Assembly: GCA_965222225.1 (NCBI GenBank)
Contig: CBDCTK010000002.1
Span: forward strand, 5,280,001 to 5,344,000
Length of the DNA: 64,000 bases
Reading direction: 5' to 3'
Source: Candidatus Poribacteria bacterium
Lineage (GTDB): Bacteria > Poribacteria > WGA-4E > JAJDTR01
Shown: positions 5,226 through 59,679 of the stretch, in pieces
Layout of the letters: the number at the start of each line of letters is the position of its first letter
Position numbering within the stretch: the first letter of the stretch is position 1
The notes under the pieces: generated by a model
Told to the model about the DNA's origin: nothing
Seen by the model: the letters and a program-made list of their open reading frames with translations, nothing else
Databases searched by the model: none
Position numbers and translations under genes: made by a program

Positions 5226-5305
5226 AAGCGAGCGGATAGATCAACTGAGTGAATAGCGAAGGCGATAGAAGATCCGGATAAAAATCCCAGTGCGATAGAA
5301 ATTCC
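5226..5305 (+). repeat. Hypervariable GATCAA...ATCC cassette cluster (nested)
   Basis: Full copy at 5239-5275 inside an interrupted outer copy, plus an extra 3' remnant. Confidence 0.85.
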
Positions 5306-6610: not shown

Positions 6611-6938
6611 GCGATAGAGATCCCCTGCACACCAGCCTTTGCCAAAACGACAGGAATACACTTCGTGACCCTCAAGTTAACTCAAGTTGCTACCTATTCC
6701 GGTAGGTTGGCCTTCCAGCCCGACCCACGATCAAACGAGCGAGTAGCGAGTAGCGAGTAGCGAGTGCGATAGAGATCTTCACAGGTTGTATGGCATAAGA
6801 AACCGCTAGATTTTGTACATTTGTAGGGTGGGCGCCGCCCAGCATTTCTTGTAGCGTGCGCACGACGATTAAATGAGCGAATAGCGAACAGGATTTCCTA
6901 TCGCCCTCCCTATCCGGTCGGTTGATCGATAGAAATCC
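6611..6938 (+). repeat. Intergenic mosaic of GTAG-REPs and hypervariable cassettes, including one inverted nested copy
   Basis: 3' fragment 6611-6623; copy 6729-6778; REP 6815-6841; outer copy 6867-6938 interrupted by a minus-strand copy 6891-6927. Confidence 0.85.
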
Positions 6939-7041
6939 CACCTGCCTTTGCCTTTCATTGTCTTAGTGGTTGATTGAAGGGATTCGGCATGCATTCGCAG
7001 TGGATTCTTGGGCGCAATGTGCACCAGATTTGGAGGTGAAT

Positions 7042-8466
7042 ATGATCGAACGTTGGGAAACTTATGAACTCACACTGGATGGACCACAGGGGGGTAATCC
7101 GTTCGTTGATGTTGAATTGACGGCGGAATTTAGACTCAATAACCGAGTTTTCAAGCCACACGGGTTTTACGACGGCGATGGGCTTTACAAAGTTCGATTC
7201 ATGCCAGATGAAGTTGGCGAATGGACTTACGCCACCACAAGTAACCGAGCCGAACTCAATGGAAAGACGGGGAGATTTACGTGCATTGGGCCATCCGAGG
7301 GAAATCACGGGCCTGTGAACGTCCATAACGATTTCTACTTTCGGTATGCCGACGGGACGCCGTATCATCAGTTTGGGACGACGTGCTACGCATGGACTCA
7401 TCAAGGCGACGCGATGGAGGAGCAGACACTCCAAACCCTCGCCGATGCACCGTTCAACAAACTGCGGATGTGCATCTTTCCGAAGGATTACGCCTACAAC
7501 GATAATGAGCCGGTTTATTATCCGTACGAGGGACAGCCGCTCACGGATTGGGATTTCACGCAATTCAACCCCGAGTTCTGGCGGCATTTTGAAGAGCGCG
7601 TCCGTGACCTTTTGCGCCTCGGTATCGAAGCAGATCTTATCCTGTTTCACACCTATGACCGGTGGAATTTCGAGAACATGGCCGCAAATAGCGATGATCG
7701 CTATATTCGTTACGCCGTCGCTCGGTTAGCGGCGTTCCGAAATGTGTGGTGGTCGTTGGCGAATGAATATGACATCATGCCTGCGAAAAAGGAATCTGAC
7801 TGGGACCGGTTTTTCCAGATTATCCGCGACCATGACCCCTATCAACGACTGCGTGGGATTCACAACTGTCGCCGCTGGTATGACCACAGCAAGCCGTGGG
7901 TGACGCACACGAGTCTTCAAACCGCCAATATGGCGCACGGTATCCGCTATCGCCGCCAATACAGGAAGCCGGTTATCTACGATGAGTGCCGCTACGAAGG
8001 AGATATTCCGCAGGGGTGGGGAAATATCTCCGCAAAGCAGATGGTACAGCACTTCTGGGCAGGCACTGTTTCCGGTTGCTATGTCGGTCATGGCGAGACT
8101 TACAAACATCCCGAAGATTTCCTATGGTGGGCAAAAGGTGGCGTGCTGCGCGGCGAAAGTCCCAAGCGAATTGCGTTCCTCAAATCGTTCATGGCGGAAG
8201 CTCCGGCGTTTGACGCGCTCGAACCGATTGGCGACGACAGTGGGCGATATGTTCTCGCCAAGCCGGGCGAATACTACCTCGTCTACGTAACCCAACCACA
8301 AACCCTTACGCTCGATCTGTCGGGGACTCGCCCATACAGAATTGATGGCGTGGACACATGGAACATGAAAGTCGAGCCGATCGGGACGGCACAGCCGGGG
8401 GAGTATAATCTTACTGCCTCTCACAGTGATTTTGCGTACCGCTTTACACCCTATGCGCCGGGTTAG
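7042..8466 (+). CDS. DUF5060 + DUF4038 (apiosidase-like) putative glycoside hydrolase
   Basis: GNPFVDVEL, GFYDGDGLYKVRFMPD, FGTTCYAW, WSLANEYD, DECRYEG; GGAGG RBS. Confidence 0.88.
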   Translation: MIERWETYELTLDGPQGGNPFVDVELTAEFRLNNRVFKPHGFYDGDGLYKVRFMPDEVGEWTYATTSNRAELNGKTGRFTCIGPSEGNHGPVNVHNDFYFRYADGTPYHQFGTTCYAWTHQGDAMEEQTLQTLADAPFNKLRMCIFPKDYAYNDNEPVYYPYEGQPLTDWDFTQFNPEFWRHFEERVRDLLRLGIEADLILFHTYDRWNFENMAANSDDRYIRYAVARLAAFRNVWWSLANEYDIMPAKKESDWDRFFQIIRDHDPYQRLRGIHNCRRWYDHSKPWVTHTSLQTANMAHGIRYRRQYRKPVIYDECRYEGDIPQGWGNISAKQMVQHFWAGTVSGCYVGHGETYKHPEDFLWWAKGGVLRGESPKRIAFLKSFMAEAPAFDALEPIGDDSGRYVLAKPGEYYLVYVTQPQTLTLDLSGTRPYRIDGVDTWNMKVEPIGTAQPGEYNLTASHSDFAYRFTPYAPG

Positions 8467-8766
8467 AGAGCCTGACCAAGCGGGGTCGACCAGCGAGCGT
8501 GCGTTCGTTGCTGTTTCACGCAAGAGGGGAAAACTGCGATTTAATGATTCGCAGATTGGCGTGGATAGACAGATCCACGCCATAACCGTACATATGCAGC
8601 GGATTTGGCAATCCACTGCGAGCGGTGATTGATTTAACTCACATTCTCCCGGTTTGCAACGTTCCGTATAAGCGGCAACTTGGGTTAACATTCAATCCAT
8701 AATATGTGTAAATGACTATAGATGCAATCCCTCAACTGCGTAAGCCCTAAAGGAATAAGACACCAC

Positions 8767-12879: not shown

Positions 12880-15800
12880 ATGGACATCATCCAGGAACTC
12901 AATGAGAAACAGGGACAGGCGGTAACCGATAAAGACGGCGCAATTTTGGTTGTGGCAGGTCCGGGCACGGGCAAAACAATGGTTATCACCCACAGAATCG
13001 CCCACCTCATCCACCACCACGGCGTGCCGCCGGAGCAAATCCTCGCTGTCACCTTTACCAATAAAGCCGCGCAAGAAATGCTCGACCGAATCAAGGATTT
13101 ACTCGGCACAACCCAGGGATTAGACGTTAAGATTCATACCTTCCACGCCTTCTGCGTTGGCTTGCTGCGAGAACACGCGCAGGAAATCGGGTTAAACAAG
13201 AACTTTACGATTTTCGATCAGGAGACACAGAATGAAGTCCTGATTGAATGCCTGCGAGAGTTGAAACTGAACCGACTCGACTACCCGCCCTGGCAGTTGC
13301 GCGACATCATCGGGGGGTATAAGGTGAAGTTGGAAAATCCGCTCGCTGCAGACGGTGAAATGCCCGAGATTCGTACAAGAGATGGCGACGTGATTGACGA
13401 CCCGTCCGCCATCCAAAATATCGTCGACCTAATCAAAGCATATCGGAGCAAACTCGCCGCCCATTCCGCCCTCGACTTTGATGATCTGCTCTCCAAGACT
13501 GTCGAAGTGCTTCAGAAAACACCCACCGTCCGTGCAAAATACCATCGCGACATCCGCTATATCCTAGTCGATGAATATCAGGACATCAATGCCGTCCAGT
13601 ATGAACTTCTGAAATTATTGTGCCGCGTACCCGAGCGTAATTTGATGGTAGTCGCCGATGAAAATCAGTCGATTTATAGTTGGCGTGGCTCCATGCCGGA
13701 ATACATAGAGAAATTCAAGACCGATTTCCAACCAACCGTCGTGGCATTGGAAGAGCACTATCGTTGTACCGAGAAAATTCTGCGGGCGGCACAGACGGTG
13801 ATTTCCAAGAATACCCGCCAGGAAAGGAGTACCCTGAAGACACATCGGGGCGCGGGGCACTCCCTTTTCCACTATACATTGGGTGATCCAAACGAAGAGG
13901 CGTCGCACATTGCCAGGCTCATCCGCCAACTCGTAAATGAACGGCACTACTCTTATGGAGATATCGCCATCTTTTACCGGACGCATCAGCTCGCGGAGGC
14001 GCTGGCGGATCGGTTATATTACGAGGGGATTCAGTTTCAGCGTGTCGGACGAGAAAACTCGTTCCAAGAGACACACGCACAAGATATTTCGTCCTATCTA
14101 AGTTTTATCCAGTGGCGCCTCCCGCGCGATCTTGAACGGGCGCTCAATTTTCCGCAACAGTTGATTGACGATCTTACGCTCGCGCGGCTCAAATGGTTGG
14201 CGCAGCGTGATAAACTGACGCTGGTTGAACTGCTCGAAAAGATTGAAAACTATCCGGAAGATGTTGGCCCCTTGACACGCCGGAACATCCGCCAGTTCCT
14301 CGGAGAAATTGATGCCTTTGCCGAAGAAATCAGAGGCGAAAAAATTGCCAAAGTTGTGTCGAAACTGTTTAATCTGCTTGAAAGCCGTCGCTCGTCCTAT
14401 CGCGATGAAGAGATTCGACAAATTGAAGAGTGGGACGAAATCCCATATCTCAGGGTGGCTGCGGACGCTTTGTACAGCGCGATACAGCGCGGTGAGTCGG
14501 TGCGAATCACGGCTACCAATGAGATTGATTCCTGCTGTGCCGCACACATCGTTCATCAGACAATGGAGCACTATCTTGACTGCGACGTTTGTATAGAATT
14601 TTTGCCCTTGGAGGACGAAATACCCGAAATCGACAACGATAGCATAAATGTAATGATTGGTCGGTTTTCGGCTTTGCCCGAGGCAACTGGAACAGTAATT
14701 CTCATCGCATCCGAGCCAGAGTACAGCGCGAATGTGATTCAGTTAGGACGAAACGAAGAGCCGGATAAAAATCCGGAAATTGCCAAGAGTGTCATCGCGC
14801 TGAAACTATGTCAGCGAGTGGTTGGCTACTTTGAAACCCCGAATTTCGCCGACATGATTGTCTACGACCTCGAAACCACCGACTACAATCACAGGCGGGC
14901 GGAGATTGTCGAAATCGCCGCCAAGCGGCTCAGCATTATCGGGAGTGAACTCGAACGATACCATCAATTGGTCAAACCCTCGCGCGCTATTCCCGCGTCG
15001 AGCACCCGCGTTCACGGTATCGACAACGAAACGGTCAAAAATGAACCGAGTATCGAAGCGGTGCTTCCAAGCTTTCTCAGTTTTATCCAAGACCGCATTC
15101 TCATCGGTCATAATGTAATTGAGTTTGACAATATGGTCTTGGAACGCGAACTCAGGCGATTGGATATCGGCTTATCAAACCCTTGCTACGATACCCTCGT
15201 CACCGCTCAACGGCTTTATCCGCGCGAGTCCTGTAAACTTGAGGCGCTTTCTGAAAAATTCGGTATTGAACACGATACCATGCACCGAGCGATTGAGGAC
15301 GTACAGGTGAACCACCGTGTGTTTGAGGAGCTAATCAAGGTTAATCTCCGCCATCGCGAGGTGCGCTCATTGACAGAGTTTTTGCCGTTTGTGGGAGTCG
15401 GGATCCTCGCAAGTCGGGCGGGGCGCTGGGAAACTGAAGGCTCTGAGAATGCCCTGAACGATGAACAACCGTCGGATGCCATAGGAGCCTTTCTTCAAGC
15501 ATCTGCACGATACGTGCAACACCATCGTCCTGAGGCGGGTAAGTTGTTGTCATCCATGGGATCTACGGAGATAGAGAAAATTGGAGAATTTTTTCAAACA
15601 CTCCGAAAAACCACGCTCCCGAATTTTCCGGAAGATGGAGATTGGGAAAATAGGCGGGCAAAATTCATGAACGGCGTTATACAATTCGAGAGGAATAGCC
15701 GTGAAAAGGAAATTTCTGGTTTCCTTGATTATCAAAAGTTAATCAATAGCGCCGACGAAACAGAGAGCGAAACCGACAAGATTACGTTGATGACCCTTCA

Positions 15801-16068
15801 TGCGGCAAAGGGAACAGAGTTTCGAGTGGTCATCGTGACAGGAATGGAAGAGGGAACGTTCCCCATTAGGCGCAAAGACCAGTCGTTGGCGGAAATTGAA
15901 GAAGAACGCCGATTGTTCTATGTCGGCATGACGCGAGCCAAGGATCGACTCTATCTCACCTCTGTTGTCCGTCGTCACGGCGATTTAGAACGCGTGCCCT
16001 CCATGTTCACTCGCGAAATTCCATCGAACCTTATCAATCGATGGTCGCCGCGCGGTTTGAGGCATTGA
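12880..16068 (+). CDS. UvrD/PcrA-family helicase with inserted degenerate RecJ-like segment and DEDDh exonuclease
   Basis: AGPGTGKT, DEYQD, LMTLHAAKGTEF, EERRLFYVGMTRA; internal VYDLETT / IGHNVIEFD / HRAIEDV. Confidence 0.92.
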   Translation: MDIIQELNEKQGQAVTDKDGAILVVAGPGTGKTMVITHRIAHLIHHHGVPPEQILAVTFTNKAAQEMLDRIKDLLGTTQGLDVKIHTFHAFCVGLLREHAQEIGLNKNFTIFDQETQNEVLIECLRELKLNRLDYPPWQLRDIIGGYKVKLENPLAADGEMPEIRTRDGDVIDDPSAIQNIVDLIKAYRSKLAAHSALDFDDLLSKTVEVLQKTPTVRAKYHRDIRYILVDEYQDINAVQYELLKLLCRVPERNLMVVADENQSIYSWRGSMPEYIEKFKTDFQPTVVALEEHYRCTEKILRAAQTVISKNTRQERSTLKTHRGAGHSLFHYTLGDPNEEASHIARLIRQLVNERHYSYGDIAIFYRTHQLAEALADRLYYEGIQFQRVGRENSFQETHAQDISSYLSFIQWRLPRDLERALNFPQQLIDDLTLARLKWLAQRDKLTLVELLEKIENYPEDVGPLTRRNIRQFLGEIDAFAEEIRGEKIAKVVSKLFNLLESRRSSYRDEEIRQIEEWDEIPYLRVAADALYSAIQRGESVRITATNEIDSCCAAHIVHQTMEHYLDCDVCIEFLPLEDEIPEIDNDSINVMIGRFSALPEATGTVILIASEPEYSANVIQLGRNEEPDKNPEIAKSVIALKLCQRVVGYFETPNFADMIVYDLETTDYNHRRAEIVEIAAKRLSIIGSELERYHQLVKPSRAIPASSTRVHGIDNETVKNEPSIEAVLPSFLSFIQDRILIGHNVIEFDNMVLERELRRLDIGLSNPCYDTLVTAQRLYPRESCKLEALSEKFGIEHDTMHRAIEDVQVNHRVFEELIKVNLRHREVRSLTEFLPFVGVGILASRAGRWETEGSENALNDEQPSDAIGAFLQASARYVQHHRPEAGKLLSSMGSTEIEKIGEFFQTLRKTTLPNFPEDGDWENRRAKFMNGVIQFERNSREKEISGFLDYQKLINSADETESETDKITLMTLHAAKGTEFRVVIVTGMEEGTFPIRRKDQSLAEIEEERRLFYVGMTRAKDRLYLTSVVRRHGDLERVPSMFTREIPSNLINRWSPRGLRH

Positions 16069-17106: not shown

Positions 17107-17182
17107 GATCAAGCGAGCGAATAGCGAGTGCGATAGAGATCCTAAGGCGATAGTAAATCCCTTAGTGAGGGCGATAGAAATC
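17107..17182 (+). repeat. Hypervariable cassette (consensus-like copy 17107-17142) plus two 3' remnants
   Basis: GATCAAGCGAGCGAATAGCGAGTGCGATAGAGATCC, then AAGGCGATAGTAAATCC and TAGTGAGGGCGATAGAAATC. Confidence 0.88.
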
Positions 17183-17234
17183 ACCTCATTGCGCGTCTCG
17201 AATCGGCTGTAACATTTGGATTTTTGAAATCGTA

Positions 17235-19589: not shown

Positions 19590-21875
19590 CTAAGACGATT
19601 CGGTTTCTCCTTCCTCGAAAGCGCTGCGAATCTCTTTGAAAAGTGTAATGGCTTTACGTCGCCTATCGTTGGGTAAATCACTCGCATCCGTCATTTTGCT
19701 AAGCGCTCCGTGCACTCGGATAGCCAACGATTCCTTGGTGATTTCTATACCCTTGTCTTCCATAAATCGCTCGATTCCTTCCCAGATTACGCCTTCACCG
19801 CGTAAAGAAATCTCATTCACATTCGCAAGTGCTAGTTGCTTGCTGTAAGCATCCATAAGATCCTCTGCAAAAAAATCCTCCGAAAAGAGGTCTTCAATAG
19901 CGAAATTACCATTGGTTCCCACGGCGTCACCCAGTAACAGAGATTTGGTTTGATGAGTTTTATAAGGTGCGAGCCATGTTTTAACCAGTTTCACCTGAGC
20001 GCTTCGTCCTTCATCATCAGAATCGAACAAGGCGACCACCTTTAACCCCTGTCCGGTCATAAATGTGGCAATATTAACAGCCGCGAAGGAGCTTCCCCCG
20101 GGCGTGGTGAGTACATCCTCCGGCAAGCCCCCTTTCCCATCTTGTTGCAGCAAGTTAGATAATTTCGTCAGGATTCGATACTCATTGACCCCCTCTACGA
20201 CAAGATTGCGTTGGGCGACCACAAAACACTGTGAAGCGTTTATTCCTAAAGCTGCCTGAAATACGCGTTTTGCTTCTGGAGGGCTCTCGGTAAAGTCAGT
20301 CGTGACAACGGTGCCATTCTTCGTTTCCATCAACACTCGGATTCGGTCCGAATAGTTCAGATCAATCATAAAAGGAAGATGAGTCGTATAGAGAAGCGTA
20401 TTCCCCTCTGCATAGTGGTCAAGCCGGAGAAGTAGGTCTTTTTGGGCATCGGGATGAAGATGAAGTCCGGGTTCGTCAAGGAGAACGACACATCCTTCAA
20501 ACGATCCTTGACTTTCGTGCATCAACATGAGATCGAAGGGAAAAAACCACTGAAATCCTTTCGATCGCTCCTCCAGTCGAATGAGTGCCGGATCGTGATT
20601 GTCTTTTACAAAGGTGAAGAAATGCTGGCCGTCGGCGCGGTACTCAACTTCATATTGACGCTGACGAAGTCGATTCGAAATTTTACTCGTTAGCGTGGCG
20701 GTGCCATCGTCAAGATCGAATTGGCGTTGCTCGACATGGTCCGGATTGCCCTCTTCAAGATTAACCACCTCGTCTAAGCTCGACTTTGTACAAAAGTACA
20801 ATGGTTGGGTTGTACGGAAAGCCATACAACACCAAACCCGTAGGCGGGGCATCTTGCCCCGCCATGCAACACCGAAATTCGAGTGACACCCAACACATTA
20901 TCTGCATGATACTGGAAACCGCTACCGACTTTTTCAATGGTCTGCCAAAAAGCCGAGAGAATCAAAATCTCCTTCGCTTTTCGACAACACTTGATTATCG
21001 CTGCTTGTTATGTCTCTAAAATGTACAAAGTCGAGCTAAGTCGAGACCGGATAACGTAAGGAGAGCCAGAAATGTGTTATCTTCGTCTGTCAAACGATTT
21101 TGGTCGTGGCGAACTTTAATCTCATCCAGTTGAGCCGTGCCGCTAAATGCCCTGTAATCAGACATATAGACAAATGTGGGCAAATGATCTCTAACGTACT
21201 TGTGCGCTTTTGATCGAATGGTAGGCAATTGTTCAAGTGTCTGAACAAACTGCTTAAGGCTTTTACCGTAGCAATTGACGAACTTGCTCTCAATCTGCTT
21301 CAAAGGGGCCTCCGGCGATCGCACTTCGCGCAACAACGACTTGTGCTTCTGTACCAGTTTTGTCAACTCTGTCAATTGTCCCTCATGCGCCAGGCGTCTC
21401 GCGTCTTCAAGGCATTCACCGGCGCGATGTTTAATCGGTCACCGAGCCCTTCTGGAATCTCCGGCAGGGAATAGCAGGCTTTATCGACATCGCCCGGATG
21501 ATGTTCATCCGAGAGAAAATCTTCCTCAAATTCTACAGTTAATTCACCGGCATAATTTCGTGACACCTCCACACAATCCGGAATATCTTCGCACTCCGCC
21601 ATTCGACCGAGATCCGACTTCTCCCGATCTGAGAGTCTAAGCCTTACTCGACAAACCTCCTGTTTTTCGCTTCGCCCTTTTCGATGGGCACGCGGCCACT
21701 CCCGTTCCATCTGGTATGGGTCCGGATTGTACGGGTTGAGCTTATGGAGCGCCTTCAGAAGGGTAGTCTTGCCTGATTCGTTTTTGCCAACAAACACTGT
21801 TAGAGGATTCACCTCAATCCACCCGGAGTCAAGTATTCCTTTGTACATCTTTACACGAAAGGCAATCAAGTCCAT
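19590..21875 (-). pseudogene. OLD-like ABC-ATPase + TOPRIM nuclease, broken by a frameshift (~21430) and a MITE
   Basis: Walker A GKNESGKT, Walker B LLDEPGLHLHP, TOPRIM LVVEG and ALFDSD; three ORF pieces. Confidence 0.85.
20778..21036. mobile_element. 259-bp MITE with perfect 15-bp TIR and TAA target duplication
   Basis: TAA|GCTCGACTTTGTACA...TGTACAAAGTCGAGC|TAA; removing it restores the frame (GLDL-DEVVNL); internal REP GTAGGCGGGGCATCTTGCCCCGCC. Confidence 0.92.
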
Positions 21876-21942: not shown

Positions 21943-22025
21943 GGTCAAGCGACTGAATAAGGAGTGCGATAGTAGATCCTGATAGAGATCCCAGTGCGAT
22001 AGCTAATCCAGCGCGATGAGTTCCC
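21943..22025 (+). repeat. Hypervariable cassette plus stacked 3' remnants
   Basis: GGTCAAGCGACTGAATAAGGAGTGCGATAGTAGATCC t GATAGAGATCC c AGTGCGATAGCTAATCC. Confidence 0.85.
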
Positions 22026-23490: not shown

Positions 23491-23635
23491 GATCAAGCGA
23501 GCGATTAAGTGAGTGGACAATGAACGATCAAACGACTGAAAAAGGAGTGCGATAGTAGACCCTGATAGAGATCCTTTATGGAGTACGATAGTAAATCCCA
23601 CAAAGGACATGAATAGTGACTGCGATGGAGATTCC
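23491..23635 (+). repeat. Four-level nested cassette cluster
   Basis: Three GAT(C/T)AA starts and four ATCC-type ends that parse as nested insertions. Confidence 0.85.
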
Positions 23636-35634: not shown

Positions 35635-35808
35635 GTACATTTGTAGGGTGGGCACTGCCCACCCTTTCTCGTAGAGACCCCGTAGTGACCGATCAGCTGA
35701 GATCAACCGAACGATCAACTGAGTGGATAACGAAGGCGATAGTAAATCCTACAGTGGGGGATCAAGTGAGTGGACAACGAACGCGATAGCTAATCCCGAT
35801 AGAGATCC
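35635..35808 (+). repeat. GTAG-REP followed by a doubly nested cassette cluster
   Basis: REP GTACATTTGTAGGGTGGGCACTGCCCAC; cassettes at 35691, 35701, 35713-35749 and 35760-35796. Confidence 0.87.
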
Positions 35809-36001
35809 TTCTCCTGATTGCGAATTTTTGTGGTATCGGCAATCATCAAATCGCCGATTTACTCTTTTAGCAGGGAATCTTCAAGGAGTGGCAACACAAA
35901 AAAACATGGGGCAGACTTCCCTTACACGCACCGAAATTGCTATGCCATATATTTTCAAGCATACCCCTTTTTTCATTAACGGCAAAAATCGCCATCGCCA
36001 C

Positions 36002-39485: not shown

Positions 39486-42400
39486 TCACGCTTCCGACTC
39501 CGGGGTTTCGGCTGCTGCTTCATCGTGAGGGCTGCTAGACGAAGTCGCGTCTTCGGCAACTTGTTCTTGCGCCTCCGTGTCTACCTTGGAAGTCTCTTCT
39601 TCTGGAGATGGTACAACCTCAAAGGTTATCTCGTTTTCCACATGTTTGCATTTAACGAAAACGATATCTTTCTCCTGCCGATAAAGCCAGCCGGATTCAG
39701 CCGCTTCCAAATCTTCTACGCAGGGCAGATCCTGACCGAGGGCTCTCACCGCGCTTGGAATACTACCATACCCCGTGATGATAGTGTGGCTTGTTTCATT
39801 GTGTACATAACACAGTTTGAAATCCAACTTTCCGTTGCTGCCCTTGTCGCTGGTTTCTATCTGGGCTCCGCTGCTTAAGTGGATACGCCCGTTCTCATGA
39901 CGTATGATTGACGTGGAGATGTCCGGATCCTGCCCACGCAAAGTGTATAGGTTTGCCATAATGCTACCAGGGTTGATATGCGGTGGGCGTCCCTCTGTAC
40001 AGAATTCATGAAGACTGTCTGGGTATGTTCCTCTGAATTCGCCCTCCGTCCATTGCTGGTGCATACCGCTATGCGTAATGCCTTCGGCAATACCCGTCCA
40101 ATCACATCGCTGGCTATGGCGTGCAAGATGCTGCAAATGGTACGCGAAAACAAGACCACTCCGTTGTGATGCAACCCCAAACCACGCGCGAGTATCGAAG
40201 GTTGTTCCGAATATGGGAACGGAGGCGAAACGCATGGCGGGACGATCCGGCAGATTCCAGTGATAAATGAAAGCCAGCCCGGCTTTTGCCCAATATTCTG
40301 CACATGCAATATGGCGCTTATCATCGGTTATCGTGTAGGCTTCAACATACGCGCCGACAGCATTGGCTGCGGCAAGGAGATTCGGAGTCTTCGGCGGACA
40401 ATCCGACGCTTGAGCGCCGCGCGGAATTTTAAACCGGTCCATGCCCTTTAGCGCCTTTAATCCGGCGTTCAATGAGTTCTCATTCCCCGAGATTCTGGCG
40501 TGCTTTAATAGGATGAAGGCGCAATGCGCACAAATTCCTAGAACTGTGTCGTTGTCTCCTCCGAGTTCTTTCGCGCTTTCAGTTATGGGGCGGTAACGCC
40601 AACGTCCATCATCCTCCTGCGTCTCAATTAAATTCTGGGTTGTTTCTTTAAGGCGTTCTAAGCCCGCTTCGATGTTGCCGAAGTAAAACGGTAGTTCCCA
40701 GTTTAAGCTTTGGCGCTTCACTGCAGCGATCGGCCCTCCTGCCCTCGATTCGCGAACCGTGTTTCCCGCGATGGCAAGGGCGTGTTGCTTCACATCATCG
40801 TTTCGCGTTGCAAGATAGTCGTACCATAGCAGCGTTGCAATCCCTGGGAGGTTCGCTGCCGCCGAATCAACAGTTTGCTGAGGTTCACCGGTATTTTCAT
40901 TCCTCGCCTCCCGCATAATCCCGTCTCGTGAGAGCGCAAGCTGCTCCTCGTGATTCCGCAGAGATTCAAGTGGTTCAGGCGCGCCGTACGTATCGGTCCA
41001 ATGCGAGACAGCATCGGAAATAGAGGCGTTGCCGTCAATAATAATGTGTGCACTAATCGTAAGTTGTCGGTTTGCCTCCAACGTGTACGGCGTAGATGCC
41101 TCTAAGCAATTTTCCTCAACCCAGTCACCCGGTGCCGGAAGAAACAACCCCATCAGATGATTCTGATGCTTTTCATGCCAATTCGGCGAGGCAAAAACAG
41201 CGGATAGCATCGTGTGTTCGCCATCCCAAGTTTCCAATGGGTCCCATGCCAAACCAACCAGCGTTTTCTTGTACTCAACCGCCATCAGAGGAACGGTAAT
41301 CTTATAGGGATGTGGAACGAGACGGTTATTATATGGCGGTGCCGCATCTCGCGTATTTGAGGAAGGTTCATCTGTTCCTAAGAACTCCAGTCCGGGAAAA
41401 AGGGCTGCACTTTTGCCCTCCCCGTAACTACGATCGCCTGCGTGAAGCATCGGGCCATTAAAAGCGAGAATCTCCCGCCGAGCGCTGGTTGAAAGGCAGT
41501 ATTCCGTGCGCACGCGTTTGTCATCCTCGGTCAACGAAAAACGGGCCTCAAAACACCAATTCACACCGTCGGCATCCTGTTGTTCGCCAGCGAGGATAAC
41601 AGTTGACTCCCCAAAGCTATTTCCCGCGAGACGATAGATTGTGGGTATAATACGGAGTTGTTCGGTTTCGTTCTTTGAATTTCGATACCGAATCGTTGTC
41701 ATCGCATGACTTGTGGCAACTTGACGATAGCTCCCGTGTTTGGCGGCAAAAAGCGTGAAATACTCAAACCCGCGTGTACCTTGAACGAAAAGAAGTCGCA
41801 CGTGCTTGTTCCCAATCACTACATGTTCTTGGAGGTTGTATGTGTGTAATTCCGGAACTATCTGAGAAGGGACCTTCGGTGACGCCGGCTGAATTTCAAT
41901 AAAGGTTTCAAGCGTTTGCCGTACCTCGCCCATTGGCGTTTTGTACTTCAGCAAGATGGAAATCTGAGTTGCGGACTCGCGTGAAAATCTGCGGAGATTC
42001 CATACTAATTTGGTTTCGTCGCCGGCATCTAGCGTCTTAATCGGATAGACATGCCGCCCGCGGCGTAGCTTCACCTGGTTAATTGCCACACTCGTTTGAT
42101 TTGCGGGGGAGAGAGCAACCGTTCCCGTGTTACGGAGTGTGCACTGCACCTCAAAATCTTCACTCACGGTAACAATTGCCGTGTTGAGTCCTAAACTTGA
42201 TACCTCTAATTTGGGCAATTCTGTATACAGTGCCACACTGAACTCTTGGGAAGAGAGTTCGGTTGAAAACCCTCTCCTTTGAGTCTCGACAACCATGCGT
42301 TGACCGATTTCGTCGGCAATCTTGGATACAGGTGTTGGTGATTCGTAAGCAAACTCCATGGCGGATATTTTGCCGTTTGGTCCATCGGTTGATTCGTGGA

Positions 42401-43808
42401 CATGAATGCCATCCTCTCCAATCTGCTTCATATCATTGAAACTTCCGATGATGATTCCCTTTATGGCAGTTGGCTCTGTCTTGCTCTTTTCAACGGCGGA
42501 CGATGTACGGGTAAGCTTGAGGATCCGCGGATTGCCCCACAGTGCCGAATTGTTCCCGTCATCTCGACTTTCATCACACGCGGCTAGGAAGGTAACCTGA
42601 ATCTCTCTGCCGGCATGTTTCGAGACATCCATTGCGTGTTCGTTCCATTTGGGTTCGGTGGCAATTCCCTCAAAATGCCGCTCACCCGAGATTTCAATCG
42701 CGAATCGAACACCGCGTGATTTTGTCGATGGGTCGTCAGAATCAATTCCGTCCCGTAGTCCGGTACTAAAATGCAAAATTAGCGTATCTCCGGACTCTAC
42801 TTGAGGCAACGAAAGCTGATATTCGATTCGCGCAACATCCTCCTCTCGCGGCTGCTGAACTATTGCGGGCTTTGCCACGCCGCCTGCGCTATGTTGGCTA
42901 TGCGCTAAAGCCTGATCAGCGCCTTGGGCTGGACTGCTACTAGAAGCATCCGCAAAGTTGTAGATTTCGTCAATGATGCCGAATCCAAGCGGAGTTTCAA
43001 TACTGTCGGAAAAGGTCTTCTGTTCCATAGCTACGGGCTCCGACTGATCGGTTGCTGTCACCCCTGTTTCCACAGGCGATTCCGCCGCCATTGGAATGTT
43101 CGTTTCTGAAGTTTGGCTATCTATCTCTGGAACCTGGTCCGGTTGCGCGTCGGTGACATGTGAAGATGCCGCCTCATCGGCCTCAAATGACTCCGGTGCA
43201 ACGGGATTGGTCGTTTCTGACGCTTGACTGGGTATTTCGGGGGCGTCACTATCTGTTGCTACATCAGCCGGCGGCGTCTCATCGTGGTCCACCACTGCTT
43301 CATCGGTGTTTGTTGCAATATCGTCCGGAGCGTCGGCTGCCTCGTTTGCCAACTCACCGGTGATATCCGTCTCGAATTCGCTTGAAGGTAGAACGTCTTC
43401 GGCCGCCGCGTCAAGACTGTCATCTGATACATCGCGCGTCTCTAATTCAACTGAGGCTATATCTGTTGCGAAGATGCCTGCCTGTCCAACCTCAGCCGTT
43501 GCGTCTGATGCTTCTAGTTCTGTCTCGCTAGTTTCGTCGGCTACAATAGGCAATGGATTAGCGACATCAAAACGTTCCGACTGTTCATTTGCTACCTCCA
43601 AAAATCCCTCCGGTGCTTCAGCAGTCTCATTACCTAAATCTACTCTACCGTAATCGCCTGAAGTAGGATTGATTTCTTCCGCGTTTTCTGATTGGACCTG
43701 CGGTTGTTCCAATTGATTATCTTGTGCCGGTTCGTTAGTTGTGTTGTGTTGATCGTCCTCTGTTGGCTGCGTAACTAGCGATAACAACAGTTGAAAAACA
43801 GTAAGCAT
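39486..43808 (-). CDS. Large hypothetical protein: acidic disordered N-terminus, CBM/CARDB-like domains, putative (alpha/alpha)-barrel C-terminus
   Basis: 1440-aa ORF; E/D/T/A-rich first ~270 aa; ALWGNPRI; LRNTGT; TQEDDGRW; GTYPDS. Confidence 0.75.
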   Translation of the reverse strand: MLTVFQLLLSLVTQPTEDDQHNTTNEPAQDNQLEQPQVQSENAEEINPTSGDYGRVDLGNETAEAPEGFLEVANEQSERFDVANPLPIVADETSETELEASDATAEVGQAGIFATDIASVELETRDVSDDSLDAAAEDVLPSSEFETDITGELANEAADAPDDIATNTDEAVVDHDETPPADVATDSDAPEIPSQASETTNPVAPESFEADEAASSHVTDAQPDQVPEIDSQTSETNIPMAAESPVETGVTATDQSEPVAMEQKTFSDSIETPLGFGIIDEIYNFADASSSSPAQGADQALAHSQHSAGGVAKPAIVQQPREEDVARIEYQLSLPQVESGDTLILHFSTGLRDGIDSDDPSTKSRGVRFAIEISGERHFEGIATEPKWNEHAMDVSKHAGREIQVTFLAACDESRDDGNNSALWGNPRILKLTRTSSAVEKSKTEPTAIKGIIIGSFNDMKQIGEDGIHVHESTDGPNGKISAMEFAYESPTPVSKIADEIGQRMVVETQRRGFSTELSSQEFSVALYTELPKLEVSSLGLNTAIVTVSEDFEVQCTLRNTGTVALSPANQTSVAINQVKLRRGRHVYPIKTLDAGDETKLVWNLRRFSRESATQISILLKYKTPMGEVRQTLETFIEIQPASPKVPSQIVPELHTYNLQEHVVIGNKHVRLLFVQGTRGFEYFTLFAAKHGSYRQVATSHAMTTIRYRNSKNETEQLRIIPTIYRLAGNSFGESTVILAGEQQDADGVNWCFEARFSLTEDDKRVRTEYCLSTSARREILAFNGPMLHAGDRSYGEGKSAALFPGLEFLGTDEPSSNTRDAAPPYNNRLVPHPYKITVPLMAVEYKKTLVGLAWDPLETWDGEHTMLSAVFASPNWHEKHQNHLMGLFLPAPGDWVEENCLEASTPYTLEANRQLTISAHIIIDGNASISDAVSHWTDTYGAPEPLESLRNHEEQLALSRDGIMREARNENTGEPQQTVDSAAANLPGIATLLWYDYLATRNDDVKQHALAIAGNTVRESRAGGPIAAVKRQSLNWELPFYFGNIEAGLERLKETTQNLIETQEDDGRWRYRPITESAKELGGDNDTVLGICAHCAFILLKHARISGNENSLNAGLKALKGMDRFKIPRGAQASDCPPKTPNLLAAANAVGAYVEAYTITDDKRHIACAEYWAKAGLAFIYHWNLPDRPAMRFASVPIFGTTFDTRAWFGVASQRSGLVFAYHLQHLARHSQRCDWTGIAEGITHSGMHQQWTEGEFRGTYPDSLHEFCTEGRPPHINPGSIMANLYTLRGQDPDISTSIIRHENGRIHLSSGAQIETSDKGSNGKLDFKLCYVHNETSHTIITGYGSIPSAVRALGQDLPCVEDLEAAESGWLYRQEKDIVFVKCKHVENEITFEVVPSPEEETSKVDTEAQEQVAEDATSSSSPHDEAAAETPESEA

Positions 43809-52604: not shown

Positions 52605-52916
52605 GATGACCAAGCCGTCGATTGTCCCTAATTATCTTGTCATTCAATCGTTGCTCCTTTCTTCAACTAAGTCAGTGGAAATCAAGAAAGGTAATCCTAC
52701 AAAATTTACGCACCGACCTACGTCAAGAAAAGATGAACTTCGCATGGGGGAGGCAGATGTATTGAAAACACGAAAGTCACAGCAATGGGCAGGACAAGGT
52801 TTAAGGTTTGATGGCGTGCAAACCATCAGCAACTGTTCAGAATTGGTTCGCGCACATTGTTTTATTCTTGAATAACCGCTGACATCCTATCGACAAATAA
52901 ATCGTCGTAACCCTAA

Positions 52917-53196
52917 GAGCCTGTTTGAAAAGTACATTTGTAGGGTGCGCACTGCGCACCAACCTCTAAAAGCCCCAGAGTGGGATCAAGGGAGCGAATA
53001 GCGACTGCGATAGAGATCCATGAAGGTGTATAGAAACGCCAAAACCCCGTGCACCTAAGCCCCAGCGGGGATCAAACGAACGGATAGTGAGTGCGATAGC
53101 AATCCCATAGGTACGTAGCAGGCAACAATTAAGACATGGAAGAACTTCCCACAAATGACCAAAAATGGCTTTCCTATCGATTATTCAAACAGGTTC
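52917..53196. mobile_element. 280-bp MITE (13-bp TIR, TAA duplication) carrying REPs and two cassettes
   Basis: TAA|GAGCCTGTTTGAA...TTCAAACAGGTTC|TAA; cassettes at 52984-53019 and 53070-53105. Confidence 0.85.
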
Positions 53197-53248
53197 TAAA
53201 CGAAGACCGGGGGAATGGATGCAGAGAATTGCAACTCGCCTCAATTCC

Positions 53249-59255: not shown

Positions 59256-59474
59256 TATAGTCATGTCCATTCATGTGTACCCATATTAATGAGAGAAATT
59301 AGCGACTTGATTGTTGAAGATTGTTACGACAAACTTACTGTAGGAGCGATCTCCCGATCGCGACCGCCTGTCGCTAGGAAAGCTCGCTCCTACAGAAGAC
59401 GCGCAATAAATTGCACTACGATGAATCAAACTGCATAAATCCTATATGTGTAATTCTCAGTTGTAATGACTATA
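59256..59474. mobile_element. MITE-like element with an internal inverted REP pair
   Basis: TATAGTCAT...ATGACTATA ends; REP pair at 59340-59393; a similar right end occurs at ~8703-8720. Confidence 0.55.
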
Positions 59475-59679
59475 ATTGTAGGGGACGGCCCCCCCCATGG
59501 TTGTAAAGGACAACCATGACTGTGCCGAGGCGGCGGCGTGCAATCTTCTCGGAGACCGATTGGGAGGTATCTGTTGCGAGAGGATGAACTCAGGGAAGGA
59601 TTCCGGCTAAGGGAGGAAATCGGCGATTTGATGATCGCGCAGATTCCACACAGAAACAGGGGTGATTTTATCCGCTAGT

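What the first reader, a model, noticed from the sequence alone, without database searches (positions are those of the whole stretch)
6867..6938. Inverted cassette nested inside a forward cassette
Seen: GATTAA AT GA GC GAATA GC GA AC | a + GGATTTCCTATCGCCCTCCCTATCCGGTCGGTTGATC | GATAG AA ATCC. The insert is the reverse complement of GATCAA CC GA CC GGATA GG GA GG GCGATAG GAA ATCC t. It replaces the GC of GCGATAG, the same position used at 23526 and 35760. Slippage or tandem duplication cannot produce an inverted copy with different slot values, so this supports true integration and fixes both cassette ends.
Basis: seen in the sequence. Interest (0 to 1): 0.85.

Follow-up and report, generated by a model that had tools for sequence, protein, structure and literature searches.

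The report
Tiny mobile hairpin repeat, self-nested
A 36-37-base hairpin-forming repeat that litters this sponge-symbiont (Poribacteria) genome has inserted, upside down, into another copy of itself, which is good evidence that this very small, gene-less element really moves.

Summary
Window 6867-6938 holds a forward copy of a ~36-nt repeat. I call it HT: a head GATYAA-NN-GA-NN-GRATA-NN-GA-NN and a tail GCGATAG-N2-3-ATCC. It is split between head and tail by a complete inverted copy.

Slot 1 pairs with slot 4 and slot 2 with slot 3, with G-T wobbles, giving a top-strand hairpin with tandem G.A mismatches.

The chromosome carries ~1200 copies. Related genomes are all Candidatus Poribacteria; one genus carries 280-761 copies and a second ~110-126. 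No Rfam family matches.

The nested arrangement is not unique: 28 copies in this genome share the same geometry, and more occur in other MAGs.

Evidence for real integration:
- Filled and empty sites exist within and between genomes.
- One orthologous site across four genomes is empty, holds a simple HT, holds a direct nested HT, or holds an inverted nested HT.
- Neighbouring copies are as unlike as random pairs.
- Inner hairpins are more intact than outer ones.

Insertion is 3' of a G, usually G|C, without target duplication. Orientation follows GC skew, not gene direction.

The element works like a REP, SDR or IS200-type single-strand hairpin element, but no cognate transposase was found. 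I rate it a new variant of a known kind, of moderate interest.

The parts
6848..6866 (+). 5' part of a GTAG-type REP-like palindrome ('fam3', consensus GTAGGGTGCGCACTGCGCACCAGCC). It is split by the outer HT.
   Evidence: The genome holds 134 intact fam3 copies, and 36 + 96 copies where fam3 is followed by GATYAA. The window reads GTAGCGTGCGCACGAC|GATTAA. Paralogous empty and filled pairs exist at the same position (2929373, 4225121).
6867..6889 (+). Outer HT head (H1): GATTAA AT GA GC GAATA GC GA AC. The inner pair set GC/GC is intact. The outer set AT/AC has one A.C mismatch.
   Evidence: Pairing rule.
6890..6926 (-). Inner complete HT unit, inverted (37 nt). On the - strand it reads ATCAA CC GA CC GGATA GG GA GG GCGATAG GAA ATCCT. 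All 4 slot pairs are Watson-Crick. Its tail is 6891-6904 and its head is 6905-6927 (6927 is shared).
   Evidence: Identical 30-mers occur elsewhere in this genome and in another family's genomes.
6927..6938 (+). Outer HT tail (T1): CGATAGAAATCC. The leading G of GCGATAG is missing.
   Evidence: In 18 of 28 composites GATAG follows the inner head at once.
6939..6946 (+). 3' remainder of the split fam3 REP-like palindrome (CACCTGCC).
6729..6780 (+). Neighbouring HT copy whose hairpin arm is expanded into a heptamer array, (AGCGAGT)x4.7, then tail GCGATAGAGATC.
   Evidence: It is 14 nt shorter in all four other runs laid.
5239..5303 (+). HT copy with extra tail modules.
17107..17185 (+). HT copy followed by two further tail modules (H T T T). 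The whole block is absent at the syntenic place of relative G005.
23503..23560 (+). Direct nested or tandem pair: head, then head 2 nt later, then tail. This is the commonest direct geometry.
   Evidence: There are 103 such pairs in the genome.
35713..35810 (+). Two HT copies in direct orientation with extra tail modules.
52984..53104 (+). Two HT copies. The one at 53070 sits inside a REP_a hairpin (AAGCCCCAGCGGG|GATCAA...).

Best explanation
HT is a non-autonomous, very small (36-37 nt) mobile DNA repeat of some Candidatus Poribacteria lineages. At 6867-6938 one copy has integrated, in inverted orientation, into an older copy.

Shown:
- The unit is 5'-(G)ATCAA, then a hairpin NN-GA-NN[GRATA]NN-GA-NN, then GCGATAG-N2-3-ATCCY-3'.
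- The four variable dinucleotide slots are compensatory base pairs. G-T is tolerated and A-C is not, so only the purine-rich top strand is under selection to fold.
- Copies are present or absent at otherwise identical sites, within the genome and between species.
- Insertion is immediately 3' of a G, mostly G|C. There is no target duplication, and 0-2 nt of target are lost at the tail end. Sites are often inside G+C-rich palindromes (other REP families) and in HT itself at two fixed G's.
- An inverted insertion at the G|C between head and tail gives exactly the geometry seen here.
- Orientation follows local GC skew and not gene direction.

Inferred:
- Movement goes through single-stranded DNA, with the hairpin plus its conserved unpaired tails recognised by a protein supplied in trans. 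An HUH/Y1 enzyme of the IS200/RAYT kind is the best guess.
- The 3'-flank motif hairpin-G|CGAYAG is shared with the REP that flanks the genome's IS200-like Y1 gene, but no cognate gene was identified.
- The outer copy here is older: it has one broken pair and the inner copy has none.
For: Family and abundance:
- 1203 heads with up to 1 mismatch on the chromosome.

Hairpin:
- Mutual information is 1.56 bits (slot 1 with 4) and 1.55 bits (slot 2 with 3), against at most 0.45 for other slot pairs.
- 903 of 1203 copies have all 4 pairs standard or wobble, against a mean of 134.5 (max 159) in 200 shuffles.
- G:T reaches 21% and 14% at two pairs, against 4% and 1.6% for A:C.
- The dedicated tool, on 69 copies from the window and other MAGs, gives 92.8% paired against 60.5% shuffled (0 of 500 shuffles as high) and 23-58% when slid.
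- The same holds in 101 loci of other MAGs: 138 of 191 distinct copies against 25 in shuffles.

Mobility:
- 58 solo copies have paralogous empty sites.
- A hairpin repeat carries 0, 1 or 2 units in its loop.
- An orthologous site next to the Y1a gene is filled in G000, G001 and G005 and empty in G002, G009 and G004.
- A four-state orthologous series runs empty, simple, direct-nested, inverted-nested.

Nesting:
- Adjacent heads within 80 nt are direct 333 (gap +2: 103; gap -2: 47), convergent 55 (gap 19: 28) and divergent 8.
- Architectures predicted by insertion at the two G's are found: 'H 2 H 4 T 2 T' 6 times, 'H -2 H 4 T 6 T' 8 times, 'H 4 t 4 h 0 T' 10 times.
- Neighbours differ at 5.9 of 9 variable positions, against 5.3 for random pairs; 2 of 103 direct pairs are identical.
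- Inner hairpins are more intact than outer ones. Inverted: 22 of 27 against 12 of 27 with all 4 pairs, 13 to 2 among unequal pairs. Direct: 91 of 103 against 68 of 103, 30 to 7.

Polarity:
- 629 of 905 single-orientation clusters have the top strand on the G-poor strand (Fisher p 2e-32, but clusters are not independent).
- Flanking genes are co-directional 284 times and antisense 247 times. The skew effect persists within fixed gene context.
- A canonical GTAG-type REP family shows the same polarity, 99 of 134.

Distribution is patchy: 17 of 151 Poribacteria genomes. One genus is 9 of 9, a genus of another family is 4 of 4, and the largest family is 0 of 100.

The sequence is present in independent data sets.
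Against: - No transposase could be tied to HT. The IS200-type Y1a gene is flanked by a different REP, and the HT beside it is a secondary insertion.
- Y1a relatives occur in 64 of 100 genomes of the family that lacks HT, and were not found in 2 of 4 genomes of the second HT-bearing genus.
- Full-length relatives of the truncated, HT-flanked Y1e gene are not flanked by HT.
- The hairpin is thermodynamically weak under nearest-neighbour DNA parameters: -0.8 to -2.2 kcal/mol, z-scores +0.35 to +1.07. Folding would need a protein or non-canonical G.A stacking that the model handles poorly.
- If G-rich means leading strand, as the weak positive link between skew and gene strand suggests, the folding strand lies on the leading-strand template. 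That is opposite to what is described for IS608 and ISDra2 (abstract and passages of PMC6006769).
- Junctions are fuzzy by 0-2 nt.
- Composites use a restricted set of inner subfamilies and the rarer tail type. This also fits spread of a doublet.
- No origin or terminus was mapped, and the skew changes sign many times along the chromosome.
Confidence: 0.7

Rival explanations
1. The nested doublet (head, inverted unit, tail) is itself the unit that spreads, as REPINs do. On this view 6867-6938 is a copy of an existing doublet and not an integration that happened at this place.
For: - 28 copies share an identical geometry and junction: slot 4, then A, then GGATTTnCTATCGC.
- Inner heads come from few subfamilies. 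CC..GG and CT..AG types make up most of the 28, though each is 1-13% of all copies.
- The inner tail is nearly always the 3-nt-spacer type, the minority type genome-wide (16% of solo copies; 181 T3 against 350 T2).
- 72-nt matches of 80-90% identity to the whole doublet exist in this genome and in relatives.
Against: - Outer and inner slot sets combine freely; nearly every one of the 28 is a different combination.
- Outer heads look like a random draw of the family. They follow the skew rule 18 of 27 times, like the background 629 of 905.
- The outer copy sits in the same target sites as solo copies.
- An orthologous outer copy carries no insert, a direct insert or an inverted insert in different genomes.
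- Inner hairpins are more intact than outer ones.
- The CT..AG subfamily also carries the 3-nt-spacer tail when solo, 69 against 24. The inner unit is therefore an ordinary member of its subfamily.
Confidence: 0.13
2. HT is a structured RNA, either a small RNA or a cis-acting hairpin such as a terminator, stabiliser or protein-binding site. Its copies are kept by selection on RNA function, and the nested forms are by-products.
For: - Strong compensatory covariation with G-U-type wobbles on one strand.
- Tandem G.A pairs are common in RNA motifs (general knowledge).
- The region is present in contigs of two metatranscriptome libraries. The tool itself warns that this does not show transcription.
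Against: - Orientation is unrelated to flanking gene direction, 284 co-directional against 247 antisense, and follows GC skew within fixed gene context.
- No Rfam family matches at E up to 10 on the region.
- Copies are gained or lost between species and inserted inside other repeats.
- Distribution among close lineages is patchy: 0 of 100 genomes of a sister family.
- 129 of 905 clusters, or 172 of 1203 heads, lie inside crude ORF calls.
Confidence: 0.07
3. The inverted arrangement arose by recombination, gene conversion or template switching between separate copies on opposite strands, not by a transposition-like integration.
For: - Repeats this dense (about 1 per 5 kb, often clustered) give many substrates.
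- Synteny breaks coincide with repeat-rich spacers.
- A heptamer array inside a neighbouring copy varies in length between data sets, so slippage does act on these repeats.
Against: - Random recombination would not give one exact spacing (28 of 55 convergent pairs at 19 nt) nor almost no divergent pairs, 8.
- The join lies at the same G|C used by direct nested copies and by insertions into unrelated targets.
Confidence: 0.07
4. Assembly or amplification chimera at this site.
For: None found. No single independent contig spans 6860-6945.
Against: - Contigs of 4 runs from 4 studies cross the head/inverted-unit join from unique left flank.
- Contigs of 2 runs cross the inverted-unit/tail join into unique right flank.
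- One 74-nt record covers 6885-6958.
- 27 further copies of the same architecture exist in this genome, and others in other genomes.
Confidence: 0.01

Closest known systems
REP / BIME / REPIN sequences mobilised by RAYT (TnpA_REP) Y1 HUH enzymes
   Same: - Short (21-65 nt), very abundant, mostly intergenic hairpin repeats with conserved unpaired bases at the hairpin foot.
- Found solo, clustered and in mosaic arrays, with several families per genome.
- Thought to move as single-stranded DNA (passages of PMC6006769; discussion passage of PMC3116915).
- This genome has bona fide REP/RAYT sets. One is a Y1 gene flanked by inverted GCCCCAGCGGGGCGAYAGG repeats.
- HT shares that REP's hairpin-G|CGAYAG 3' flank.
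- HT also shares the skew polarity of a GTAG-type REP family.
   Different: - There is no 5' GT[AG]G guide; the 5' tail is GATCAA.
- The stem is 2+2 Watson-Crick pairs around tandem G.A, and its sequence varies freely: 398 slot combinations.
- No RAYT gene is flanked by HT in a REPtron arrangement.
- Doublets are nested, with one unit inside the other, not two adjacent inverted units with matching arms.
Small dispersed repeats (SDR4-6) of heterocyst-forming cyanobacteria (Elhai et al. 2008, Genome Res 18:1484). Recalled: the paper is not in the library. I saw only its citation in PMC3116915.
   Same: As I recall it:
- Very small repeats consisting of a stem-loop with variable, compensating stems and conserved unpaired tails.
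- Elements found inserted into one another and into other repeats, which was the argument for mobility.
- No transposase known.
   Different: - Different phylum and no evident sequence likeness (not tested).
- As recalled, SDRs are 21-27 nt; HT is 36-37 nt.
- Tandem G.A pairs, a separate iterated tail module and the GC-skew polarity are, to my recollection, not described for SDRs.
IS200/IS605 family and its gene-less derivatives (PATEs)
   Same: - Strand-specific hairpins.
- Insertion 3' of a short specific sequence without target duplication.
- Seamless presence/absence.
- Orientation linked to replication (abstract and background of PMC6006769).
- A Y1 gene of this genome scores as an IS200 equivalog: 65.8 bits against a cut-off of 55.
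   Different: - IS200/IS605 ends carry two subterminal hairpins and a tetra- or pentanucleotide target. HT has one hairpin and, as far as seen, only a G (G|C) requirement.
- The polarity relative to skew appears opposite (inference).
- The element is ten- to twenty-fold smaller.
Insertion sequences that target REP palindromes (IS1397, ISKpn1; Tobes and Pareja 2006). Seen only as reference-list entries in PMC3116915.
   Same: HT prefers to land inside other palindromic repeats. About 132 HT copies lie in the GTAG-type family, 24 in REP_a and 35 in a third hairpin repeat.
   Different: Those are full insertion sequences with their own transposase and target duplications. HT has neither.

Membership tests
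REP/RAYT (REPtron) system | Short (about 21-65 nt), high-copy, mainly extragenic repeat | tested here: met
   36-37 nt. 1203 heads on 5.64 Mb. 172 of 1203 lie inside crude ORF calls and the rest are intergenic.
REP/RAYT (REPtron) system | Imperfect palindrome able to form a hairpin | tested here: met
   Covariation of 4 pairs. The predicted DNA stability is weak.
REP/RAYT (REPtron) system | Conserved GT[AG]G guide tetranucleotide 5' of the hairpin foot | tested here: not met
   The 5' tail is GATCAA. ATAG/GATAG motifs lie in the loop and 3' of the hairpin instead.
REP/RAYT (REPtron) system | A cognate Y1 (RAYT) gene flanked by inverted copies of the same repeat | tested here: not met
   There are five Y1 loci in G000.
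- Y1a is flanked by REP_a in 14 loci of 13 genomes. The HT beside it is an insertion present in 3 and absent in 3 of 6 genus members.
- Y1c and Y1d have their own GTAG REPs.
- Y1b has none.
- Full-length Y1e relatives are unflanked.
REPIN (REP doublet forming a hairpin) | Two adjacent inverted REPs with matching arms that pair along their length | tested here: not met
   The doublets are nested (head, inverted tail+head, tail). The two heads differ at 5.9 of 9 variable positions, like random pairs.
IS200/IS605-derived miniature elements | Subterminal hairpins at both ends | tested here: not met
   There is one covarying hairpin per unit.
IS200/IS605-derived miniature elements | Insertion 3' of a fixed short target, with no target-site duplication | tested here: inconclusive
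   No duplication. Insertion is always 3' of a G, mostly G|C, with 0-2 nt lost. No longer fixed target was seen in the 45 of 58 filled/empty pairs that one search printed.
IS200/IS605-derived miniature elements | Orientation bias with respect to replication | tested here: inconclusive
   The bias with respect to GC skew is strong (629 of 905). Origin and terminus were not mapped, and the direction seems opposite to IS608.
Classical MITE | Terminal inverted repeats and target-site duplication | tested here: not met
   The ends are (G)ATCAA and ATCCY. No TIR and no TSD in filled/empty pairs.
Cyanobacterial SDR (recalled definition) | Stem-loop with variable compensating stem and conserved tails; elements nested in one another | tested here: met
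   This is a likeness in design only. Homology was not tested and the paper could not be read.
Any Rfam RNA family | Match to a curated covariance model | tested here: not met
   There was no match on 6700-6960 at E up to 10. The whole window at E up to 1 gave only an unrelated sub-threshold snoRNA hit at 51248.

The most novel reading that the evidence does not exclude
HT is an orphan hyper-parasite of REP/RAYT systems. On this reading it is a 36-37-nt, single-hairpin, single-stranded-DNA element with no gene of its own. It borrows a domesticated Y1 enzyme by mimicking only the enzyme's hairpin-G|CGAYAG site, and it preferentially integrates into the REPs of its host systems and into itself, on either strand of the same G|C. 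Its free stem sequence (398 variants) is then kept by selection at each round of copying. That would make it the smallest self-nesting mobile DNA with a defined structural rule, and a natural system for asking what the minimal substrate of an HUH transposase is.
Probability: 0.2. Interest if true: 0.75.

Novelty: new variant of a known kind. Interest (0 to 1): 0.55.

Why it matters
Very small gene-less repeats are common in bacterial genomes, but it is rarely clear whether they move, how, or what defines their ends.

This family offers unusually clean evidence:
- a structural rule (four compensating pairs around tandem G.A);
- exact nested geometries in both orientations;
- filled and empty sites within and between species;
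- a replication-linked polarity.

It also shows that long-read Poribacteria genomes are shaped by layers of repeats inserted into repeats. Here a GTAG-type REP contains an HT, which contains another HT. Such repeat-rich spacers coincide with breaks of gene order.

For annotation, the ~1200 copies should be masked as one repeat family and not read as cassettes, arrays or regulatory sites. For mechanism, the family gives a concrete 36-nt substrate to test with the genome's Y1 enzymes.

Tried and rejected
- REPtron idea. I first thought HT was the REP of the IS200-like Y1a gene, because HT copies flank that gene and the truncated Y1e. I rejected this. Across 14 loci the gene is flanked by another repeat (GCCCCAGCGGGGCGAYAGG), and the HT is a secondary insertion, absent in 3 of 6 genus members. 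Y1a relatives occur in 94 of 151 genomes, including 64 of 100 of a family without HT. Full-length Y1e relatives carry no HT within 1 kb in the g1 genomes examined. Y1 genes of the second HT-bearing genus gave only loose, inconsistent HT neighbourhoods.
- Syntenic comparison with the closest relative G005 (about 88% identity in genes). Spacers are too diverged for clean ends at this locus, and the two genes flanking 6867-6938 are not neighbours there.
- Thermodynamic folding gave no significant stability for single units or the doublet on either strand, so I rest the hairpin on covariation only.
- Rfam gave nothing.
- RNA-library contigs cover the region. Contigs cannot show transcription, strand or ends, so nothing is claimed from them.
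- My first tail pattern (3-nt spacer only) undercounted tails. It was redone with 2-3 nt.
- Replication. I did not map the origin or terminus. 'Leading' and 'lagging' are inferred from skew sign only.
- Literature. Five searches found no description of such repeats in Poribacteria in the held library: 'small dispersed repeat'+cyanobacteria, 'Poribacteria-1', Poribacteria+repeat+intergenic+palindromic, Poribacteria+'repetitive extragenic palindromic', and Poribacteria+'miniature inverted-repeat'. Subscription papers and supplements were not seen.
- The Elhai 2008 paper is not held and is cited from recall.
Full report
WHAT IS THERE.
- 6867-6889 is a forward head, GATTAA-AT-GA-GC-GAATA-GC-GA-AC.
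- 6890-6926 is the reverse complement of a complete unit, ATCAA-CC-GA-CC-GGATA-GG-GA-GG-GCGATAG-GAA-ATCCT.
- 6927-6938 is the forward tail, CGATAGAAATCC.

The head pattern with up to one mismatch occurs 15 times in the window, against 0.01 expected. A tail pattern occurs 12 times against 1.4 expected. Fourteen heads are on the + strand. The only one on the - strand is the inner copy of this finding.

THE FAMILY. I call the unit HT.
- The window is C2:5280001-5344000 of a 5.70-Mb assembly of two contigs.
- The chromosome has 702, 1203 and 1527 heads at 0, 1 and 2 mismatches. The 63-kb contig has 1, 3 and 4.
- Position weights give (G)ATCAA-NN-GA-NN-GRATA-NN-GA-NN-GCGATAG-(N2-3)-ATCC-Y.
- Among 151 genomes of the phylum, 17 have the exact pattern. 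All 9 of the window's genus have 280-761 matches. All 4 of one genus of another family have 111-126. One further genome has 13 and three have 1-2. None of 100 genomes of the largest family has any. The reversed control pattern gave 0 everywhere.
- Rfam has no matching family.

THE SLOTS ARE BASE PAIRS.
- Slot 1 covaries with slot 4 and slot 2 with slot 3: 1.56 and 1.55 bits of mutual information, against at most 0.45 for other slot pairs. The values are reverse complements.
- 903 of 1203 copies have all four pairs standard or wobble, against a mean of 134.5 (max 159) after shuffling partners.
- On 69 copies from the window and from other MAGs, 92.8% of cells pair, against 60.5% in shuffles (0 of 500 as high) and 23-58% when the partner is slid.
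- In 101 loci of other MAGs, 138 of 191 distinct copies pair fully, against 25 in shuffles.
- G:T is common (21% and 14% at two pairs) and A:C rare (4% and 1.6%). Only the purine-rich strand as written is under selection to fold.
- The invariant GA/GA between the paired slots would form tandem G.A. The G and A that close GRATA could form a further G.A around a three-base loop. Both are inferences.
- Nearest-neighbour DNA folding gives only -0.8 to -2.2 kcal/mol for single units, not better than shuffles. The hairpin therefore rests on covariation, and probably needs a protein.

DNA, NOT RNA. I used a crude ORF-based gene map of 4338 calls.
- 284 clusters are co-directional with both flanking genes and 247 are antisense to both.
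- By contrast, 629 of 905 single-orientation clusters have the top strand on the locally G-poor strand. This holds within fixed gene context. With both genes on +, the + to - counts are 64:91 where skew is positive and 116:32 where it is negative. With both genes on -, they are 32:63 and 92:41.
- Clusters are not independent, so the Fisher p of 2e-32 overstates the case.
- A canonical GTAG-type REP family of this genome shows the same polarity, 99 of 134. Another REP family shows none.
- Skew changes sign many times along the chromosome, and I did not map the origin. Which replication strand is meant is an inference.

IT MOVES.
- Within the genome, 58 solo copies have a paralogous empty site. 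A hairpin repeat, GCGGGGCAAGATGCCCCGC, carries 0, 1 or 2 units in its loop.
- Between species, directly downstream of an orthologous Y1 gene, G000, G001 and G005 read CACCTGT-GG(G)GATTTC...TTGAT-CCCC. G002, G009 and G004 read CACCTGTCG-CCCC.
- The HT block at 17107-17185 is missing at the syntenic place in G005.
- The filled/empty pairs show insertion immediately 3' of a G, mostly G|C, often in the 3' half of a G+C-rich palindrome. There is no target duplication, and 0-2 nt of target are lost at the tail end.

NESTING.
- Adjacent heads within 80 nt are direct 333 times, with sharp peaks at gap +2 (103) and -2 (47). They are convergent 55 times, of which 28 have a gap of exactly 19. They are divergent 8 times.
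- These are the geometries expected if a unit inserts 3' of the G that follows slot 4 (the G of GCGATAG) or 3' of the G that follows slot 3.
- The full predicted architectures are found: 'H 2 H 4 T 2 T' 6 times, 'H -2 H 4 T 6 T' 8 times, and for an inverted unit 'H 4 t 4 h 0 T' 10 times. The last group includes this site.
- Of the 28 convergent composites, 18 are followed at once by GATAG..., 4 by a one-mismatch form, and 6 are not.
- Neighbours are no more alike than random pairs: 5.9 against 5.3 differences at 9 variable positions. Only 2 of 103 direct pairs are identical. Local duplication does not explain them.
- Inner hairpins are more intact than outer ones. Inverted: 22 of 27 against 12 of 27 with all four pairs. 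Direct: 91 of 103 against 68 of 103. This is as expected if the inner unit is younger.
- Here too the inner copy has 4 of 4 pairs, and the outer has one A.C mismatch.

THE BEST SINGLE PIECE OF EVIDENCE is one site with the same left and right flanks in four genomes.
- A GTAG-type REP intact (empty).
- The REP with a simple HT.
- The same HT with a direct unit inserted after slot 3.
- The same HT with an inverted unit between slot 4 and CGATAG.

The last has the same architecture as 6867-6938.

THE LOCUS ITSELF. The outer HT lies inside a GTAG-type REP: GTAGCGTGCGCACGAC | HT | CACCTGCC. The genome holds 134 intact copies of consensus GTAGGGTGCGCACTGCGCACCAGCC, and 36 copies with an HT at this same position. 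The place is therefore three levels deep: a REP containing an HT, which contains an inverted HT.

Contigs of four other runs from four studies carry the same joins.
- 4 of 4 runs bridge the left flank to 6914-6927.
- 2 of 4 runs bridge 6904 to 7400.
- One record covers 6885-6958.
- None spans everything.

WHO MOVES IT. This is not settled.
- The genome has five Y1 (HUH) loci.
- Y1a, 157 aa, scores as an IS200 equivalog at 65.8 bits. In 14 loci it is flanked by inverted copies of a different repeat, AAGCCCCAGCGGGGCGAYAGGTGTATAG, which is a classical REPtron arrangement.
- HT often sits inside that repeat at GGGG|CGAYAGG. That is the same G|CGAYAG context as the nested site in HT itself. A shared enzyme is therefore conceivable.
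- Against this, Y1a relatives occur in 64 of 100 genomes of the HT-free family, and were not found in 2 of 4 genomes of the second HT genus.
- The other Y1 genes have their own REPs or none.
- Full-length relatives of the HT-flanked Y1e fragment are unflanked.

COMPARISON.
- In design and behaviour HT is closest to REP sequences (features taken from passages of PMC6006769 and PMC3116915) and, from recall, to the small dispersed repeats of cyanobacteria. It fails two defining REP features, the GT[AG]G guide and a cognate flanked RAYT.
- It also differs from REPINs (its doublets are nested, not adjacent), from IS200 derivatives (one hairpin, not two) and from MITEs (no TIR, no TSD).
- Five literature searches found no description of it.

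VERDICT.
It is one instance of a recurrent, rule-bound process.
- The mechanism (a single-stranded hairpin recognised in trans) is inferred and the enzyme is unknown.
- I rate it a new variant of a known kind, interest 0.55.

Noticed in passing
window 6738-6769: A heptamer array, (AGCGAGT)x4.7, sits inside the hairpin arm of the HT copy at 6729. All four other runs laid have it 14 nt (two units) shorter. Slippage therefore acts on these repeats as well as insertion.
   Followed up: partly
window 6805-6863: A separate ~59-nt repeat, (..TTTGTAGGGTGGGCGCCGCCCAGC..), has about 90% identical copies elsewhere in this genome and in genus relatives.
   Followed up: no
genome C2, e.g. 1527267; window 6848-6866 + 6939-6946: A canonical GTAG-type REP family (GTAGGGTGCGCACTGCGCACCAGCC) has 134 intact copies and about 132 interrupted by HT. 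It shows the same orientation bias to GC skew as HT, 99 of 134. No flanked RAYT was found for it.
   Followed up: partly
genome C2:3080255-3080728 and orthologues (L124-L137): An IS200-like Y1 gene sits in a classical REPtron, flanked by inverted GCCCCAGCGGGGCGAYAGGTGTATAG repeats. Relatives are present in 94 of 151 Poribacteria genomes, usually in 1-4 copies.
   Followed up: partly
genome C2:3560213-3560573: A 92-aa C-terminal remnant of a RAYT-like gene is boxed in by convergent HT copies. Full-length (about 190-225 aa) relatives in other genus members have no HT nearby.
   Followed up: partly
window 6946-8479: The DUF5060/apiosidase-like glycosidase gene lies elsewhere in relative G005 (C1:396402-397935), while the rest of the window is syntenic (C1:5220471-5285581). 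The break coincides with the repeat-rich spacer that holds the finding.
   Followed up: no
window 52911-53200, 20770-21040, 59268-59478: Larger composite repeats (about 285, 265 and 200 nt) have many 75-90% copies in G005. The first contains two HT units and REP_a pieces, a BIME-like mosaic.
   Followed up: no
window 17141-17185, 5268-5303, 21966-22010: Tail modules (GCGATAG-N2-3-ATCC) are repeated two or three times after one head, at spacings of 2, 6, 7 and 13 nt. Only some of these spacings are explained by nested insertion.
   Followed up: partly
window 12880-16068: A UvrD-type helicase of 1062 aa carries an RNase_T exonuclease domain inserted at residues 660-815.
   Followed up: no
window 39486-43808 (-): A 1440-aa open reading frame has no Pfam match at E up to 0.001.
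   Followed up: no
window 6865: A>G in all four other runs laid, one base before the outer head. These are probably strain differences.
   Followed up: no
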